64,000 nucleotides of DNA from Nitrosopumilus sp. (GTDB taxonomy: Archaea; Thermoproteota; Nitrososphaeria; Nitrososphaerales; Nitrosopumilaceae), in NCBI GenBank assembly GCA_965197525.1, contig OZ240211.1, positions 1,728,001 through 1,792,000 on the forward strand, written 5' to 3'. Made by a program: the position numbers and the translations under genes. Numbering within the stretch: the first letter of the stretch is position 1; each line of letters opens with the position of its first letter. This document shows positions 3,383 through 54,934 of this stretch, piece by piece. Below the pieces are notes generated by a model, which did not search any database, was not told the DNA's origin, and saw only the letters and a program-made list of their open reading frames with translations.

Positions 3383-4810
3383 TGTGGGATCCCGAAAGTA
3401 GTTCGCCCCTCTTCAAAACTTGGAGATGTTTGCATGTATGATGTTCTAGAGTGTTGTATAACTCTCTTGCGCTAAATTCCACTATACAATTCATGAATTT
3501 TATTCATTTCCACTCCACGCATGGCAACTATTCAAAAAATTATGTATAGTATCCACTAAGGATAACATCTGTTTTGATATCATAATGTTACTCTACACTG
3601 TACTCTTGACCTGTTTGACTATCTGTCACCGTCTTGCCAGCAGGTGGCATCTTTCTCTTAAATGCCTGTACCGGAGTCTCTAGATTGTCCCAGTCAAGTG
3701 ACATATGCGGTCTGTTGTAGTTGTACCATTCCATGAACCGTTCCACGGGATCCTTTGCAGATGCGGTGTAAAACGGTCCTCCTACACTAGAGTTCTCTGT
3801 TGTACCACGTCGAGTCTTGCCAGCTGAGGCACCTTCAAAGTGGCCTAGTTTGCGCTGTATCTCTCCGTGCAGACGTTCTAGTTTACCATTTGTCTGTGGA
3901 TGTCGTACACGTGCCAATATGTGTTTGATGTCAAGTTCCACCAGTCTTTGTTCAAATTTGGAGGCACCCTTCTTCTTGGCCTCAGACTCTGTGGCATAGA
4001 ACTGGGTACCGCGATCTGTCAGGATTGATGCAGGCTTGCCGTGATTTTTTATGGCCTCATCAAGTACCTTTAGGGCGTTTTCTGTAGTTGCCTCTGCAAA
4101 TACCCCAAAACCAGTCACAAAACGTGAAGCGTCATCCTGGTAACATATGAGCCATCTGCCATCGTCAAGCTGTTTGAAATCAGTATGCCACAGGGAATTG
4201 GAGTAAGTTCGTTCCCACCTAACCCACTTGCGCCTCTTGCTCTTGTTTGGACTGGCATCTACATAATCTGCATCTTTCAATACTTTGTGTATAAAGTTGT
4301 GCGCAATATACATTCCTACAGATGATCTTATGACGCGCTCCAAGGTTGCAGCTCCTCGAATCTCGTTTGCTATTGCTGAGAGAATCACAGAGTGTTCTAG
4401 TCGTCCGGGCGCACTCTTTTTGGGTCTTCCCATTGGGGCAGGATACACTATCTTGTCTGCATCTTTGTATCTCTTGTGCAGCTTTTGAACCCATCTGACA
4501 GAGACGTTCATCTTTGCTGCAATCTCTCTGTTACTGGCAGTATTCTTGCGTTTTTCTCTGATAATCCATTCCACTTTGGACAAGTCAAGTTTTTTCATTA
4601 CTCGTACTCTCCGTCTTCCTATATAACGCCACACAGTAGAGCGTCTCCATCTGCGGACCCACACACCGCTGTTTCCAGTAATGGACAAGTTGACTGTGTC
4701 TTTCATAGATTTTACATGGGATGCCATGCCGCTGAAAAAATCGGTCATGGAACACGCCCACCTAGGCTATGAGCCTGATGTGAGGGGTGAACTACTTTCG
4801 GGACAATACA
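3383..4810 (-). mobile_element. IS481-family insertion sequence, intact, 29-bp TIRs, 15-bp TSD
   Basis: Left IR TGTGGGATCCCGAAAGTAGTTCGCCCCTC (3383-3411); reverse complement of right IR TGTATTGTCCCGAAAGTAGTTCACCCCTC (4782-4810). TGT...ACA ends. Identical CAATCACATAACATT at 3368-3382 and 4811-4825. Confidence 0.92.
3588..4598 (-). CDS. IS481-family DDE (rve) transposase
   Basis: N-terminal HTH (EIAAKMNVSVRWVQKL). DDE triad in WHTDFK, ILTDRGTQF and NGKLERLH. Probable ATG at 4598; an in-frame ATG also exists at 4748. Confidence 0.92.
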   Translation of the reverse strand: MKKLDLSKVEWIIREKRKNTASNREIAAKMNVSVRWVQKLHKRYKDADKIVYPAPMGRPKKSAPGRLEHSVILSAIANEIRGAATLERVIRSSVGMYIAHNFIHKVLKDADYVDASPNKSKRRKWVRWERTYSNSLWHTDFKQLDDGRWLICYQDDASRFVTGFGVFAEATTENALKVLDEAIKNHGKPASILTDRGTQFYATESEAKKKGASKFEQRLVELDIKHILARVRHPQTNGKLERLHGEIQRKLGHFEGASAGKTRRGTTENSSVGGPFYTASAKDPVERFMEWYNYNRPHMSLDWDNLETPVQAFKRKMPPAGKTVTDSQTGQEYSVE

Positions 4811-50866: not shown

Positions 50867-51859
50867 TTGACCGAGCTCATAATCCCTGCTGTAGTCTCAT
50901 GCACTGTTGCATTTGTTCTAGTATTCTTGATGACACCCAAACTAATCACATTTTTAGAGCAAAGAAATTTTACAGTCAAAGATATAAACAAGAAAGGAGA
51001 CGTCATGGTTGCAAGGCCGGGCGGCCTATCTATCATTGCAGGAATAGTCGCATCAGAGATAGCACTGTATGTGTTTTTACCACTAACTGAAATACTGGCA
51101 GTGACTGCTACAACTTTTGGTGCGTTTGTAGTTGGGTATATTGACGATAGACGAGTAATGGGCGGCTGGTTCAAACCCATTGCATTGGCAATTACTGCAT
51201 TTCCAATCATGCTACTTGGTACATATGACACCAATCTTGCGTTTCCGTTATTTGGAACGGTACAAATTCCTGTGTTGTATATTGGATTGATAGTCGCAAT
51301 GATAGTAATTACTGGAAATACGATTAACTCTATTGATGTTCTAAATGGTGTCGCTAGTAGCTTTATGGTAGTTGCAAGTTTTACTTTATCTATCTGTTTA
51401 TTTATTGTACAAAACTACGAAATTGCAATAATCAGTCTACCGCTTGGTTTTGTCTCACTTGCTTTTTACCGGTATCACAAGAACCCCAGTAGAATCTTCC
51501 CTGGTGATTCAGGAGCGCTGGCATTGGGTGCCATGTATGGTGCCATAGCTATTGTAGGTGGTGTGGAAGTTATTGCAGCTGTGGCTTTGCTACCTGCCAT
51601 CATCAACTCTTTTTTATTTTTGGCAAGTGTCAAAAAAATTGTAGAACATCGACAACTAAAAGTAAAACCAGTAGAACATACTGCAGATTTTAAATTAAAG
51701 GCAACAAACCAAAAGACGCGTGTTACTCTACTTAGATTAATCCTTGCAATATCTGGATCATTAACTGAAAGTCAGGCATGTTATGCGATCTTTCGACTGG
51801 CAATATTTTCTGGAATCTTGGCAGTGATTACCGCATTTATGATAGGTGTGCGCATTTGA
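50867..51859 (+). CDS. glycosyltransferase family 4 (MraY/GPT-like UDP-GlcNAc:polyprenyl-phosphate transferase)
   Basis: Multi-TM; GYIDD, NTINSIDVLNG, IFPGDSG. Confidence 0.92.
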   Translation: MTELIIPAVVSCTVAFVLVFLMTPKLITFLEQRNFTVKDINKKGDVMVARPGGLSIIAGIVASEIALYVFLPLTEILAVTATTFGAFVVGYIDDRRVMGGWFKPIALAITAFPIMLLGTYDTNLAFPLFGTVQIPVLYIGLIVAMIVITGNTINSIDVLNGVASSFMVVASFTLSICLFIVQNYEIAIISLPLGFVSLAFYRYHKNPSRIFPGDSGALALGAMYGAIAIVGGVEVIAAVALLPAIINSFLFLASVKKIVEHRQLKVKPVEHTADFKLKATNQKTRVTLLRLILAISGSLTESQACYAIFRLAIFSGILAVITAFMIGVRI

Positions 51860-52092
51860 AGGCTCGTATCTATCTATTTCTCTTTGCAATGTGGATTCTG
51901 ATACTTTTAGGTGGTGGTATTGCAGTCATGATTCTTGGTCCTATATCATTTTCTGGATTCGGATCTGATTCTGTTGATTTGTATGTTACATCAGTTATCA
52001 AAGCAGTCATAGCTATAGTTCTAGTTATAATCTGGATCTTGATTTTATCGAAACTAAAGAACTGGATCTTTAGAAGAGAGATTGGACACTAA
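51856..52092 (+). CDS. small 2-TM membrane protein
   Basis: TTG at 51856 overlaps the upstream stop; two hydrophobic helices. Confidence 0.75.
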   Translation: MKARIYLFLFAMWILILLGGGIAVMILGPISFSGFGSDSVDLYVTSVIKAVIAIVLVIIWILILSKLKNWIFRREIGH

Positions 52093-52160
52093 CTGCCATA
52101 CATGAATATCTGTTTCTTATCGTAGTCTTCCCTACTGATCTCTGTGCTATCGTCTGCAAC

Positions 52161-53610
52161 GGTTCTGTAACATCTTCGAGTGGTTCTATTACCATTTAAT
52201 CTCAACCCTGTTTCACCTGCGGGCAAAGAATACCTCGATCACTTGACTTTGACATATCGACTATTCGGATTACCGGTGTGCTAGGTTCCGTCATCGCCGG
52301 CTCAAAAGTGCCAGACTGCGCTTCATCTATGTCACCTCTACTACCCCTAAACCTAGGGGGCAGCTTGCGTGATATGTTCATGGCAGCGATGATATCCCTG
52401 TCCATAAACAAACCGCAATTATTACACGACAATTTACGATGTTGTTGCATGTCCTCTTGGAGTCTCTTTCCGCATTGCGGACACTGCGTGCTCGTGTTTC
52501 TTGGGTCTACAAATTTGACTGGTAGCCCGACCCATTGGGCTTTGTATTCTATTTGGCGTTGTAATTCAAAGAATTGCCAGCCGTTCAATCTACGTCTGTA
52601 CTTGTTACCTTGACCGTTTCCTTTCTTGTAGAGTTTCCTGATTCCTTTTAGGTTTTCTAAAACGATCACGGCTTTGTTCTTGACTGCGTTGTCTACTATA
52701 TCCTTTGAGATTCTGTGTATGTACTGCTTTGTACGGTTTTGTATTCTTCTCTGTTTTTGTTTCCAGAATTGACTTTTTTTTCTGCGATCATTTCTGCAGA
52801 AACCGGATCTGGCGTGTATTGTATTCTCTTTGATTGACAGTAACTTGTTTGTCTTGTAGACTGTCACCTCTTCCTCGTTCCCACACGTGACGTTTCTGAG
52901 GTTTCTGTCTATTCCTAATTTCTTGGTGCACTCTATCTCTTTTACTTCCTTGGAAATACAAAGACTGATGTTCAAGGCAGTCAATGAAAACGAACGCACT
53001 GCCAAGGCGGGATCAGACAGTATTTTTTGGGTGTGTGAGTTTAACAGGATGTTTATGGGGTTTCTGTTTTTGTATGGGATTGTAAGTAGTGTACCGTTGT
53101 GTTTTATGCCGTAACAGTTTGTCATAAAGGGATTTTTGACTTTTGGGTCTCTTACTCTGACACCACGTTTTACTGACTGTTTTCTGTTTGCCAATACTCC
53201 AGCAGCCCGTGATATTGCATTGAGTTTGTATGAAGATAGGATGTCATAGTCTATTAGTTCATGATAACACAACATAGACAACTGCTTCATATTGTGAGTG
53301 TCTTCCTTTAACCCTATCTTGATACACCGGTTAACCATATCCGTGAATACGCTCATCATATCCATCAGGTCAGAGTTTGGTGTGTATTTTTGTGCTATTG
53401 ACTTTGTTGCCTTCAACAGCTATCCTATGATTTAGAAGTAATTAATTCTAGTGGCTGTCTGACAGTATGCACTCAGGTCTGGTGTCTGCGTAGGTGCAAA
53501 AAACGTAGCATCCTGTAAAATCACATCTAGAAACGAATGAGATCTGAGTGCTTACGTCTGACGATTGAGACTTAATATCTTGTTTTACCACTCGAAGATG
53601 TTATAGAACC
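52161..53610 (-). mobile_element. non-autonomous tnpB-carrying element with 24-bp TIRs
   Basis: GGTTCTGTAACATCTTCGAGTGGT (52161-52184) versus ACCACTCGAAGATGTTATAGAACC (53587-53610): 23/24 inverted match. Flanks TCTGCAAC (52153-52160) and TCTACAAC (53611-53618). Confidence 0.8.
52202..53416 (-). CDS. tnpB: TnpB RNA-guided endonuclease
   Basis: RuvC-I LGIDRNL, RuvC-II IVLENLKGI, Zn finger CPQC/CNNC, RuvC-III DRDIIAAMNI; full length, 404 aa. Confidence 0.95.
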   Translation of the reverse strand: MKATKSIAQKYTPNSDLMDMMSVFTDMVNRCIKIGLKEDTHNMKQLSMLCYHELIDYDILSSYKLNAISRAAGVLANRKQSVKRGVRVRDPKVKNPFMTNCYGIKHNGTLLTIPYKNRNPINILLNSHTQKILSDPALAVRSFSLTALNISLCISKEVKEIECTKKLGIDRNLRNVTCGNEEEVTVYKTNKLLSIKENTIHARSGFCRNDRRKKSQFWKQKQRRIQNRTKQYIHRISKDIVDNAVKNKAVIVLENLKGIRKLYKKGNGQGNKYRRRLNGWQFFELQRQIEYKAQWVGLPVKFVDPRNTSTQCPQCGKRLQEDMQQHRKLSCNNCGLFMDRDIIAAMNISRKLPPRFRGSRGDIDEAQSGTFEPAMTEPSTPVIRIVDMSKSSDRGILCPQVKQG

Positions 53611-53690
53611 TCTACAACTAAGAGATCCCGCATCTTTGCATTCTCTCTAATCCTTGTTCTATCAAACATCAAACTAATGACTCTCATCAC

Positions 53691-53960
53691 TTACAAGTGC
53701 CACGGTTTCCCGCTTTTGACTATCTTTTCAGGCAGCTTTGCTTTATTATTTTTTAAAAATTCCATCTCTTGCCTCTTGTCTCGTAGCTCGTCTGGTAGCA
53801 TGATTGGGATCTCTTCAATAATTGGATAAAATCTGGAACACTTTGTACAAAACAATGAACCCGTTGATATCGTATCCTTGTTCTCATTTATGGCAAATAG
53901 TTCTAATGGATGATTTTTGTCAATCGGGCATGCCAAGATATCAATCATTGTTTTGTTCAT
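53691..53960 (-). CDS. Trm112-like protein
   Basis: DILACPIDK...LFCTKCSRFYPIIEEIPIML. Confidence 0.9.
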   Translation of the reverse strand: MNKTMIDILACPIDKNHPLELFAINENKDTISTGSLFCTKCSRFYPIIEEIPIMLPDELRDKRQEMEFLKNNKAKLPEKIVKSGKPWHL

Positions 53961-54934
53961 TTCAGACTCAGATAAATTGGACTTCCTTTCTGACTAGATA
54001 AAAGTGCAGCTTCGGCAATTTTTATGACGTTTAGCGCTTCTTGTGGTTTTACTATACCATCATGCTCTTTTCTCTGTTCTTTCTCTTTTATTGCATCAAG
54101 AAAATTCTGTATCTGTGATAGTAGCGATTCTTGCTGTTTGGCACCGTCATCATCCTCTGTTACCTCTATTGTATAATCACTATCTTTGCCTTTTTTTTCT
54201 ACAGTTATTTTTTGACTGATAAGATCAGATGATATTACTGCATCAGTGCACACTGCCCTCAACTTGCTAGTTTTTTTTGGCGCAATCCAGTTTGATGATA
54301 TCACTGCGATTCTGTCATCTTTGTATCCCAACATGATGCTTGACAGATCTTCACTTGTGTGTTTTATCTTGCCAGTCCTTGCAAATACCACGTATGGCAT
54401 ATCCCCAAAGAGCCAATTTGCAGTATCAATGTCCTGGCCTGATGTATCATGGATGATTCTTGCATCTTTTATGTGCAAAGGCGCCTTCTCTTCTCGATGA
54501 AATTCTAACATGACTAGACTGCCAAATCCCTCTTCTGCGATAATCTTTTTTACAGTGTTTACTGCAGGGTTGAACCGTTCAATATACCCGCATGTTAAAA
54601 TCACCTTGTTTTTTTCTGCTAGTTTGACTAGTCTTTGGCCTTGGTTTGGTTGATATGTCATTGGCTTTTCTACAAAGACATGTTTTCTTGCATAGAGCAA
54701 CTCTTCGACAACGTCCGCATGCGTTGTTGTGGAAGTTACTACAAATGCAGCGTCAAACTCCTCTGATCTTTGCAATTCTTCTAATGAATTGTAATGATTT
54801 ACAGAATATCTTTCTCCACACTCTTTGCTTTTTTGAGAATCAATATCACAAACAGCGCTTAAAACACCCAATTGTGACAAAATTCTTGCATGATTTTCCC
54901 CACATTGCCCAACTCCAATTTGCACTATATTCAT
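53957..54934 (-). CDS. Gfo/Idh/MocA-family oxidoreductase
   Basis: IGVGQCGENH, HVFVEKP, GYIERFNP. Confidence 0.92.
   Translation of the reverse strand: MNIVQIGVGQCGENHARILSQLGVLSAVCDIDSQKSKECGERYSVNHYNSLEELQRSEEFDAAFVVTSTTTHADVVEELLYARKHVFVEKPMTYQPNQGQRLVKLAEKNKVILTCGYIERFNPAVNTVKKIIAEEGFGSLVMLEFHREEKAPLHIKDARIIHDTSGQDIDTANWLFGDMPYVVFARTGKIKHTSEDLSSIMLGYKDDRIAVISSNWIAPKKTSKLRAVCTDAVISSDLISQKITVEKKGKDSDYTIEVTEDDDGAKQQESLLSQIQNFLDAIKEKEQRKEHDGIVKPQEALNVIKIAEAALLSSQKGSPIYLSLK

What the first reader, a model, noticed from the sequence alone, without database searches (positions are those of the whole stretch)
52153..53618. tnpB packaged in IS6-like terminal inverted repeats with an 8-bp target duplication
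Seen: a catalytically intact tnpB is the only gene between 24-bp inverted repeats (23/24 identical, GGTTCT...AGAACC ends), flanked by TCTGCAAC and TCTACAAC (7/8). No transposase is present. Established: IS200/IS605 and IS607, the usual TnpB carriers, have no long TIRs and make no TSD. IS6-family DDE elements have GG-starting TIRs (IS257/IS1216 begin GGTTCTG) and 8-bp TSDs. Inference: this is a non-autonomous element in which an RNA-guided nuclease rides a DDE-type transposon mobilised in trans, a prokaryotic parallel to Fanzor capture by TIR transposons. I cannot verify whether this lineage has already been described.
Basis: partly seen in the sequence, partly recalled or inferred. Interest (0 to 1): 0.88.

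Follow-up and report, generated by a model that had tools for sequence, protein, structure and literature searches.

The report
TnpB cargo in IS6-type transposon
A 1.45-kb mobile element in a sponge-associated Nitrosopumilus archaeon carries only the RNA-guided nuclease TnpB and its guide RNA, yet has the inverted-repeat ends and 8-bp target duplications of IS6-type DDE transposons; its ~40 sister copies all sit beside a one-sided TTR motif, exactly where the nuclease would need its recognition motif to cut the empty site.

Summary
Window 52161-53610 has 24-bp TIRs (23/24) and 8-bp flanks matching 7/8.

The exact 24-mer is unique in this genome, but the element belongs to a large family. There are 34 full-length tnpB copies and about 10 deletion derivatives, in several subfamilies. 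Each subfamily has its own TIR that starts GGTTCTGT, and each copy has its own variable 8-bp TSD.

The complete genome has no Y1 TnpA and no serine recombinase. It has seven IS6-type (DDE_Tnp_IS240) transposase genes, in elements with the same TIR tips and 8-bp TSDs. A contig from a ~95%-identical strain lacks the element at this site.

New here:
- The omegaRNA scaffold shows compensatory base changes, and its last hairpin uses the inner TIR as its 3' arm.
- A strictly one-sided TTR motif lies just 5' of the upstream TSD (36/41 copies, p about 3e-33). It is essentially absent from transposase-bearing IS6 elements (1 of 8).
- This geometry fits TAM plus (TSD and flank) as the target in the empty site.

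TnpB in DDE/TIR transposons is already known in general (Altae-Tran 2023). I found no report of an IS6 link or of this TAM geometry. This scan has already flagged the same family in other windows of this genome.

The parts
53619..53621 (-). TAM-like motif: TTA in tnpB sense, immediately 5' of the upstream TSD
   Evidence: Across 41 oriented omega-bearing copies, position -3 is T in 32, -2 is T in 38, and -1 is A or G in 39. WTR occurs in 36/41 against a background of 0.087 (p 3e-33). The mirror side shows no signal. That it is the TAM is inferred.
53611..53618 (.). Target-site duplication, copy on the tnpB 5' side (TCTACAAC)
   Evidence: Matches 52153-52160 at 7 of 8 positions. Sister copies have perfect, variable 8-bp TSDs.
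53587..53610 (.). Terminal inverted repeat at the tnpB 5' end
   Evidence: The first 7 bases (GGTTCTA here, GGTTCTG at the other end) fit the IS6/IS26 TIR consensus start GGTTCTG (PMC6807381).
53457..53563 (.). Nested 92-bp MITE (53465-53555) with its own 8-bp TSD (GTCTGACA/GTCTGACG)
   Evidence: Five other copies in the genome have 15-bp TIRs (GTATGCACTCAGGTC) and their own 8-bp TSDs. It is a later insertion, not part of the tnpB element.
53434..53447 (-). AT-rich TATA-like box about 20-30 nt upstream of the TTG start of tnpB
   Evidence: Position only. Sister subfamilies have TATAAA at the same distance. Inferred promoter, not tested.
52202..53416 (-). tnpB, 404 aa, intact RuvC D-E-D motifs and zinc finger
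   Evidence: dN/dS against other subfamilies is 0.11-0.14.
52241..52364 (-). Conserved omegaRNA scaffold overlapping the 3' end of tnpB
   Evidence: More conserved than the coding average. RNAalifold on 29 sequences gives four helices with compensatory changes. Rfam has no family for it.
52161..52249 (-). Terminal hairpin of the predicted omegaRNA. The 5' arm is the scaffold end (AAGUCAAGU...). The 3' arm is the inner part of the TIR. The last 6 nt (AGAACC) are unpaired.
   Evidence: RNAfold finds this arrangement in most subfamilies and in distant relatives. A fixed-register pairing count gave 165/240 paired cells against 152.7 +/- 3.9 for shuffled partners; 7 of 2000 shuffles reached the observed value.
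52161..52184 (.). Terminal inverted repeat at the tnpB 3' end
52153..52160 (.). Target-site duplication, copy on the tnpB 3' side (TCTGCAAC)
52141..52160 (-). Predicted guide template: TSD plus 12 nt of flank, read out of the element in tnpB sense
   Evidence: Inferred from the canonical TnpB arrangement and from the position of the TTR motif. No RNA ends were available.

Best explanation
Window 52161-53610 is a non-autonomous derivative of an IS6-type DDE transposon. Its only cargo is a TnpB/omegaRNA module.

**Shown:**
- It inserted into the 59-bp gap between two convergent genes, a small membrane-protein gene and trm112, and duplicated 8 bp.
- It belongs to a family of about 45 copies with GGTTCTGT-type TIRs and variable 8-bp TSDs.
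- The genome encodes IS6-type transposases in elements with the same TIR tips, and it has no IS200/IS605 or IS607 transposase.
- The TnpB genes are under purifying selection.
- The RNA scaffold at the 3' end of the gene is conserved with compensatory changes.
- Insertion sites carry a one-sided TTR three bases wide, directly 5' of the upstream TSD.

**Inferred:**
- The IS6-type transposases move these elements in trans.
- The omegaRNA runs through a terminal hairpin whose 3' arm is the inner TIR, then through AGAACC, into the flank. The guide is therefore the 3' TSD plus downstream DNA.
- In an allele without the element, TTR sits directly 5' of that same sequence. TnpB can then cut the empty site and have it repaired from a filled copy. 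This is homing or gene drive rather than repair of an excision, because IS6-type transposition is copy-in.
- In the filled allele the same sequence is preceded by ACC, so the element does not cut itself.

My odds: about 0.9 for the architecture, 0.75 for trans-mobilisation by IS6-type enzymes, and 0.55 for the TAM/homing step.
For: - **TIRs, TSD and gene:**
- **Family size:** 34 full-length paralogs, 77-88% identical in protein.
- **Subfamily ends:** every subfamily has its own TIR starting GGTTCTGT and clean, variable 8-bp TSDs. At least 25 of 41 copies have perfect TSDs.
- **Recent activity:** one subfamily has 9 copies that are 97.7-99.2% identical.
- **Transposase-bearing partners:** G000 746475-748444 has a 28-bp perfect TIR with the same tip, TSD CTATTGTG, and a 378-aa DDE_Tnp_IS240 protein. 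699962-703151 carries a 383-aa IS6-type transposase plus a DNA methylase.
- **TIR matches:** subfamily D shares 18 tip bases with the first of these. This copy matches the second at 18/24.
- **Transposase census of the complete genome:** 0 Y1_Tnp, 0 Resolvase, 7 DDE_Tnp_IS240 above cut-off.
- **Empty site** in a ~95%-identical strain.
- **Selection on TnpB:** dN/dS is 0.09-0.16, and 32 of 34 copies are intact with their motifs.
- **omegaRNA:** compensatory changes in the scaffold and a terminal hairpin.
- **TTR motif:** 36/41 copies, p 3e-33, with nothing on the mirror side (6/41, p 0.17). All 9 of the near-identical young copies have it.
- **Independent genomes:** it is also present in two other Nitrosopumilus MAGs.
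- **Contrast with transposase-bearing elements:** only 1 of 8 IS6 transposase elements with a TSD shows it on either side (Fisher p 7e-5).
- **Published IS6 criteria:** 8-bp repeats, GG tips, TIR consensus starting GGTTCTG (PMC7986276, PMC6807381).
Against: - No transposase in this genome has this copy's exact TIR. The best match is 18/24, and only the 8 tip bases and the inner CGAGTGGT are shared.
- This copy looks old: one TIR mismatch, one TSD mismatch and a nested MITE. It may no longer move.
- The transposases score below NCBIfam's IS6 equivalog cut-off (103 and 121 bits against 125).
- Harmer and Hall argue that archaeal IS6-like elements may be a family of their own (PMC6807381).
- No RNA ends are available, so the guide start is inferred.
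- The terminal-hairpin covariation is modest, and a DNA-level palindrome could explain it as well.
- The comparison set of transposase-bearing elements is small (8), and most come from other species.
- A copy-in transposon does not leave an excised donor site, so the benefit of homing is less obvious than in IS605.
- A second TnpB family in this genome, with other TIRs and 8-bp TSDs, shows no motif at the same place (n=4).
Confidence: 0.8

Rival explanations
1. The one-sided TTR is a target preference of the transposition complex itself, for example because the two ends differ in their subterminal sequence. It has nothing to do with TnpB.
For: DDE transposases can have target preferences. The two ends do differ inside the TIR. 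The control set of transposase-bearing elements is small and comes mostly from other species.
Against: - The motif lies on one side only, although the TIRs are near-symmetric.
- Elements with the same TIR tips that carry the transposase instead of tnpB lack it (1 of 8).
- Its position is exactly the one a TAM must have if the guide starts after the TIR.
Confidence: 0.25
2. TnpB takes part in choosing the insertion site. It binds TTR and recruits the IS6-type transpososome, so that every new copy lands next to a usable TAM.
For: The motif is already present in all 9 near-identical, young copies. This is easier to explain by targeting at insertion than by slow selection afterwards.
Against: No known TnpB recruits a transposase. 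No tnpB gene is linked to an IS6 transposase gene in 30 loci examined. A strong drive step acting right after insertion would give the same pattern.
Confidence: 0.12
3. An ordinary IS1341-type (IS200/IS605) tnpB element happened to insert into an unrelated inverted-repeat MITE.
For: The exact 24-mer TIR is unique in this genome. A different MITE really is nested in this copy.
Against: - All subfamilies, and homologs at 37-47% identity in Nitrososphaera, Bathyarchaeia and Sysuiplasma, have the same layout.
- The TIR forms the 3' arm of the omegaRNA terminal hairpin.
- TSDs are variable and 8 bp long.
- The genome has no Y1 transposase.
Confidence: 0.03
4. The tnpB copies are domesticated, guide-RNA-directed regulators (TldR-like) or decaying relics with no nuclease role.
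For: This copy is single in its subfamily and carries small scars.
Against: The catalytic D-E-D motifs and zinc finger are intact in 32 of 34 copies. dN/dS is about 0.1. The genes are multi-copy with recent bursts. Exapted TnpBs are usually single-copy and inactivated (PMC10691335).
Confidence: 0.04

Closest known systems
DDE-transposase-associated TnpB branches (DDE-1 to DDE-6) and solo TnpBs with matching ends (Altae-Tran et al. 2023, PMC10691335)
   Same: A prokaryotic TnpB sits inside inverted terminal repeats. The tnpB 3' end lies within 250 bp of the transposon end. Solo copies share ends with transposase-carrying elements, which suggests mobilisation in trans.
   Different: The DDE families named in the literature I could read are IS630, ISL2 and IS1031 (PMC13565253), not IS6. 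Here no copy was found with tnpB and the transposase in one element. The paper's supplement was not on hand, so I could not place this lineage in their tree.
IS6/IS26 family insertion sequences
   Same: TIRs start GGTTCTG with GG tips and G at position 7. TSDs are 8 bp. Partner elements encode a DDE_Tnp_IS240 transposase. MITE derivatives exist (PMC7986276, PMC6807381).
   Different: Classical members are about 800 bp and carry only the transposase. Only one passenger-gene case was listed in 2021 (PMC7986276). The transposases here are long (378-383 aa), have N-terminal zinc-binding domains and score below NCBIfam's IS6 cut-off. TIRs are 24-28 bp.
IS200/IS605 and IS607 TnpB elements, including the tnpB-only IS1341 group (ISDra2, IS608)
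   Same: The protein is from the same family. The omegaRNA overlaps the 3' end of the gene. The guide is presumably read from the flank. A 5' T-rich TAM lies on the opposite flank. ω-only derivatives exist.
   Different: Those elements have no TIRs and no TSD. They insert 3' of a fixed tetra- or pentanucleotide that doubles as the TAM, and they are moved by Y1 or serine TnpA. Here there are TIRs, an 8-bp TSD between TAM and element, and no TnpA in the genome.
Fanzor (eukaryotic TnpB homologs) inside TIR transposons
   Same: An RNA-guided nuclease is carried as cargo of DDE transposons with TIRs and TSDs.
   Different: In solved Fanzor complexes the 5' TSD is part of the TAM and the 3' TSD lies in the RNA scaffold (PMC13565253). 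Here the TSD is variable, and the motif lies outside it, so the TSD would be the first 8 nt of the guide.

Membership tests
TnpB (OMEGA effector) | Matches curated TnpB models above their cut-offs | tested here: met
   NCBIfam NF040570 scores 136.5 bits (cut-off 100). Pfam PF07282 scores 78 bits (cut-off 26.3). PDB hits are to TnpB and Cas12f.
TnpB (OMEGA effector) | RuvC D-E-D catalytic motifs and zinc finger | tested here: met
   D170, E254, D341 and CPQCG...CNNCG are present. These were read from motifs and from the PDB alignment, not from a structure.
TnpB (OMEGA effector) | Structured omegaRNA overlapping the 3' end of the gene | tested here: met
   Four helices show compensatory changes across 29 sequences.
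TnpB (OMEGA effector) | Guide read from the flank, with a TAM on the other flank | tested here: inconclusive
   A one-sided TTR lies at the predicted place. No RNA ends were available, because the RNA run holds contigs only.
IS200/IS605 (IS1341 group) | No TIRs, no TSD, and a Y1 TnpA available | tested here: not met
   The element has 24-bp TIRs and 8-bp TSDs. PF01797 is absent from the complete genome.
IS607 | No TIRs, no TSD, and a serine recombinase TnpA | tested here: not met
   PF00239 is absent from the genome. TIRs and TSDs are present.
IS6/IS26 family | TIRs with GG tips and G7; consensus start GGTTCTG | tested here: met
   All subfamilies start GGTTCTGT. The consensus is taken from PMC6807381.
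IS6/IS26 family | 8-bp target-site duplication | tested here: met
   At least 25 copies have perfect, variable 8-bp TSDs.
IS6/IS26 family | Encodes an IS6 DDE transposase | tested here: not met
   There is none inside this element. Partner elements with the same tips encode DDE_Tnp_IS240 proteins (42-53 bits, cut-off 27). Their NCBIfam IS6 scores are 103 and 121 bits, below the cut-off of 125. I therefore call it a non-autonomous, IS6-like element.
IS6/IS26 family | Copy-in transposition through cointegrates | not testable with these tools
   About a third of copies lack matching TSDs. A swapped-TSD pair was seen in a related MAG. Both fit recombination between copies but do not show the mechanism.
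DDE-associated TnpB branches (Altae-Tran 2023) | Placement in one of the branches DDE-1 to DDE-6 | not testable with these tools
   The supplement and tree are not held. The main text does not name an IS6-linked branch.

The most novel reading that the evidence does not exclude
The one-sided TTR is the TnpB TAM, and the variable 8-bp TSD forms the first 8 nt of the guide. A replicative, TSD-making DDE transposon would then depend on an RNA-guided nuclease to fix or choose its insertion sites, either by homing or gene drive into empty alleles or by TAM-directed integration. This would be the first prokaryotic case in which a TnpB TAM is imprinted on the insertion sites of a DDE transposon, and in a family (IS6) not reported to carry TnpB.
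Probability: 0.5. Interest if true: 0.8.

Novelty: new variant of a known kind. Interest (0 to 1): 0.66.

Why it matters
TnpB is thought to serve IS605 and IS607 elements by re-cutting the scarless site left after excision. It is an open question why it should help DDE transposons at all, and why it so rarely rides them in prokaryotes (PMC13565253).

This family gives a natural data set of about 45 independent insertions in one complete genome. Transposase-bearing relatives in the same and related genomes serve as an internal control. The insertions show a TAM-like imprint only where the TnpB/omegaRNA module is present. That makes the question testable with a simple TAM screen and a two-plasmid transposition assay.

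It also offers compact archaeal TnpBs (about 400 aa) with a predicted short TTR TAM as candidates for genome editing. In addition, it documents an IS burst in a sponge-associated ammonia oxidiser.

Tried and rejected
- **Rfam scan of the element:** no omegaRNA family matched, only a chance lncRNA hit at E 0.49.
- **Pattern search of JGI metagenome contigs for an empty site:** 0 hits.
- **Genus-level genomes for a nucleotide-level empty site:** they are only 70-74% identical in the flanks. They keep the neighbouring genes without the element, but with about 390-470 bp between them, so they cannot give a clean empty site.
- **Sponge metatranscriptome run:** it holds contigs only over 52244-52660. 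These cannot show RNA ends, strand or level, so I do not use them as evidence of expression.
- **Supplement of PMC10691335:** not held.
- **The two exact copies of the 24-mer in another species:** they lie at degraded ends without long ORFs and were uninformative.
- **The transposase copy at G000 2002343-2003476:** it has no detectable TIR pair.
- **The second TnpB family** (GGGAATTAYATAC ends, 8-bp TSDs, 5 copies): no motif 5' of the TSD with n=4.
- **Alternative guide model:** I considered that the guide might be the variable stretch right after the conserved scaffold, so that TnpB would target its own TIR. I rejected this because that stretch pairs with the inner TIR, and because the idea does not explain the TTR position.
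Full report
**1. The observation**

- The region reads as described. GGTTCTGTAACATCTTCGAGTGGT lies at 52161-52184, and its reverse complement with one mismatch lies at 53587-53610. No other match occurs in the window, and none in 100 shuffles.
- The flanking octamers TCTGCAAC and TCTACAAC differ at one base.
- The only long ORF inside is 52202-53416 on the minus strand, 404 aa with a TTG start. It is a TnpB by Pfam, NCBIfam and PDB sequence matches.
- It keeps the motifs GIDRN, VLENL and MDRDII and a four-cysteine zinc finger.
- The neighbours are a GT4 glycosyltransferase and a 104-aa ORF on the plus strand, and trm112 and a GFO/IDH/MocA oxidoreductase on the minus strand. The element therefore lies between two convergent genes.
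Five other copies in the genome each have their own TSD. This explains why this copy is 1450 bp long when its relatives are 1280-1350 bp.

**2. A large family**

- The window is part of a complete 2.21-Mb, single-contig genome with 39.6% GC. Record titles of relatives place it in Nitrosopumilus. The runs that hold it include a sponge metatranscriptome.
- The exact 24-mer is unique in the genome. However, blastn and tblastn find 34 full-length paralogs of the tnpB, 77-88% identical in protein, plus about 20 fragments.
- Aligned with their flanks, the copies fall into several subfamilies. Each subfamily has its own 24-28-bp TIR. All start GGTTCTGT and end ACAGAACC.
- A genome-wide scan for such TIR pairs finds about 45 simple elements. 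Most have perfect 8-bp direct repeats of unrelated sequence, such as GGATTTAG, CGTGCTTG, TTCCGACA and CCTACTCA.
- About ten are 170-500-bp deletion derivatives. These keep both ends and the 3' part of tnpB.
- One subfamily has nine copies that are 97.7-99.2% identical, so it expanded recently.
- 32 of 34 genes are intact. dN/dS between subfamilies is 0.09-0.16.

**3. Who moves them**

- Larger elements with the same TIR tips exist.
  - G000 746475-748444 is 1970 bp, with a 28-bp perfect TIR and TSD CTATTGTG. It encodes a 378-aa protein with a DDE_Tnp_IS240 domain and N-terminal zinc-binding motifs.
  - 699962-703151 encodes a 383-aa homolog plus an N6/N4 DNA methylase.
  - 1956395-1960520 (TSD TTTAATAG) holds a broken copy.
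- NCBIfam's best family for both proteins is IS6, at 103 and 121 bits. This is under the equivalog cut-off of 125.
- The whole genome has seven DDE_Tnp_IS240 genes above the Pfam cut-off. It has no Y1 transposase and no serine recombinase, while the control genomes did give hits.
- TIRs of tnpB subfamily D are identical to those of the first transposase element over the 18 tip bases. Subfamily E matches the second at 20/24, and the copy in this window matches it at 18/24: the 8 tip bases, the inner CGAGTGGT and two bases between them.
- In 61 Nitrosopumilus species genomes the transposase family occurs in 20 and the tnpB family in 6.
- None of 30 transposase loci has a tnpB or an omega core beside it.
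- Published descriptions of IS6/IS26 give 8-bp duplications, GG tips, G at position 7 and a TIR consensus that starts GGTTCTG. They list only one passenger-gene case and do not mention TnpB (PMC7986276, PMC6807381).

**4. The empty site**

- A 6.7-kb contig from a run of another study aligns to 51700-52107 and to 53625-54000 at about 95% identity. It has 54 letters in between and skips 1517.
- Removing the element and one TSD from the window would leave 59 letters there.
- More distant species of the genus keep the flanking genes without the element, but they are too diverged for a base-level comparison.

**5. The RNA**

- The last ~125 nt of the gene region, 52241-52364, are more conserved than the rest of the gene.
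- RNAalifold on 29 sequences predicts four helices. The sequences come from all subfamilies, other Nitrosopumilus genomes, and homologs from Nitrososphaera, Bathyarchaeia and Sysuiplasma. Several base pairs in these helices change on both sides, for example CCCC/GGGG to GGUG/CACC and GACAUA/UAUGUC to GAUACA/UGUAUC.
- Downstream of the conserved AAGUCRAGU the sequence differs by subfamily and is 25-107 nt long. In most of them it folds into a hairpin whose 3' arm is the inner part of the TIR. The last six bases, AGAACC, are left single-stranded just before the flank.
- In a fixed register, 165 of 240 cells pair, against 152.7 +/- 3.9 with shuffled partners. Seven of 2000 shuffles reached the observed value. 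This support is modest.
- The transposon end is thus built into the RNA, much as the right-end hairpin is in IS605 elements. That comparison rests on established knowledge, not on a test here.

**6. A one-sided motif**

- I oriented 41 omega-bearing copies by tnpB sense. The three bases just 5' of the upstream TSD are T (32/41), T (38/41) and A or G (39/41).
- WTR occurs in 36 of 41, against 8.7% in the genome (p 3e-33).
- The mirror position after the downstream TSD shows nothing: YAW in 6/41 (p 0.17) and YA in 8/41 (p 0.37).
- The copy in this window has TTA, at 53619-53621 on the minus strand.
- All nine copies of the young subfamily have the motif.
- So do copies in two other Nitrosopumilus MAGs, for example TTG|CTAGTATC, TTG|CTACAGGA and TTG|AAACCTAA.
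- Of eight transposase-bearing elements with TSDs, two in this genome and six in relatives, one shows WTR on either side. About 17% would be expected by chance (Fisher p 7e-5).
- The position is the one a TAM must have if the guide begins right after the TIR:
  - In the empty allele, TTR is followed by the TSD and the downstream flank, which is the predicted guide sequence.
  - In the filled allele, that sequence is preceded by ACC.
  - The upstream TSD is followed by TIR bases, which would mismatch the guide after 8 nt.
- That TTR is the TAM is an inference.

**7. Comparison with what is known**

- Altae-Tran et al. 2023 (PMC10691335) described six TnpB branches linked to DDE transposases. 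All have inverted terminal repeats, and some solo TnpBs share their ends, which suggested mobilisation in trans.
- A 2026 review names the DDE families as ISL2, IS630 and IS1031. It notes that such associations are rare in prokaryotes (PMC13565253).
- No paper in the searchable library links TnpB with the IS6 family or with Nitrosopumilus.
- For Fanzors, the 5' TSD is part of the TAM and the 3' TSD lies in the scaffold. Here the TSD is variable and the motif lies outside it.
- I therefore rate this a new variant of a known kind.
- This scan has already flagged the same family in other windows of this genome. One earlier follow-up reached the same architecture, and a later check on it upheld only part. 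I did not see which part fell.

**8. Limits**

- There are no RNA ends and no biochemical data.
- The cognate transposase of this particular copy is not identified.
- The control set for the motif is small.
- Whether the archaeal long transposases belong to IS6 in the strict sense is debated.
- This copy carries one TIR mismatch, one TSD mismatch and a nested MITE, so it may be an old, immobile member. Its gene is still intact.

Noticed in passing
window 53457-53563: A 92-bp MITE (TIR GTATGCACTCAGGTC, 8-bp TSD) is nested in the tnpB element. Five more copies are in the genome (about 750.5, 1101.7, 1458.3, 1835.4 and 1904.3 kb), and partial matches are in two other species.
   Followed up: partly
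G000:C1 545572-547209, 874690-876315, 879513-881141, 1029190-1030824, 50588-52165: A second, unrelated TnpB family (about 22% identity) has TIRs GGGAATTAYATAC and 8-bp A/T-rich TSDs. It shows no TTR-like motif 5' of the TSD in four copies.
   Followed up: partly
L005 (G000:C1 699962-703151): An IS6-type element carries an N6/N4 DNA methyltransferase gene as cargo beside the transposase. Its flanks show no matching TSD.
   Followed up: no
L055 and L056 (OZ245003.1, about 1.32 and 1.45 Mb): Two inverted tnpB copies have exactly swapped TSDs (TAGAAACT/TTATGTTA and the reverse). This is the signature of a ~130-kb inversion by recombination between copies.
   Followed up: no
L119 (G052) and L133 (G060): IS6-type transposase elements in two species share the same TSD, TGTTTTAG, and similar TIRs. 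A third has TGTTTCGA. This could mean an orthologous insertion or a site preference of that subfamily.
   Followed up: no
window about 3591-4748 (-): A copy of an rve-type integrase/transposase gene, 95% identical to the one in L006, lies in this window. Three near-identical copies are in the genome.
   Followed up: no
L020 and L021 (G017:C1 about 1400.0 and 365.0 kb): The exact 24-mer TIR of this copy occurs at two single ends in another Nitrosopumilus species. The adjacent inner sequence is alike at both, but there is no long ORF and no partner end. They are probably remnants split by a rearrangement.
   Followed up: partly
L068, L073, L076: tnpB homologs at 37-47% identity in Nitrososphaera, Bathyarchaeia and Sysuiplasma (Thermoplasmatota) MAGs are also bounded by ...CAGAACC-type TIRs, two of them with 8-bp TSDs (AGCGTTAG, GGGCGACA). 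The layout therefore spans archaeal phyla. The bases 5' of their TSDs are GTA and GAT.
   Followed up: partly
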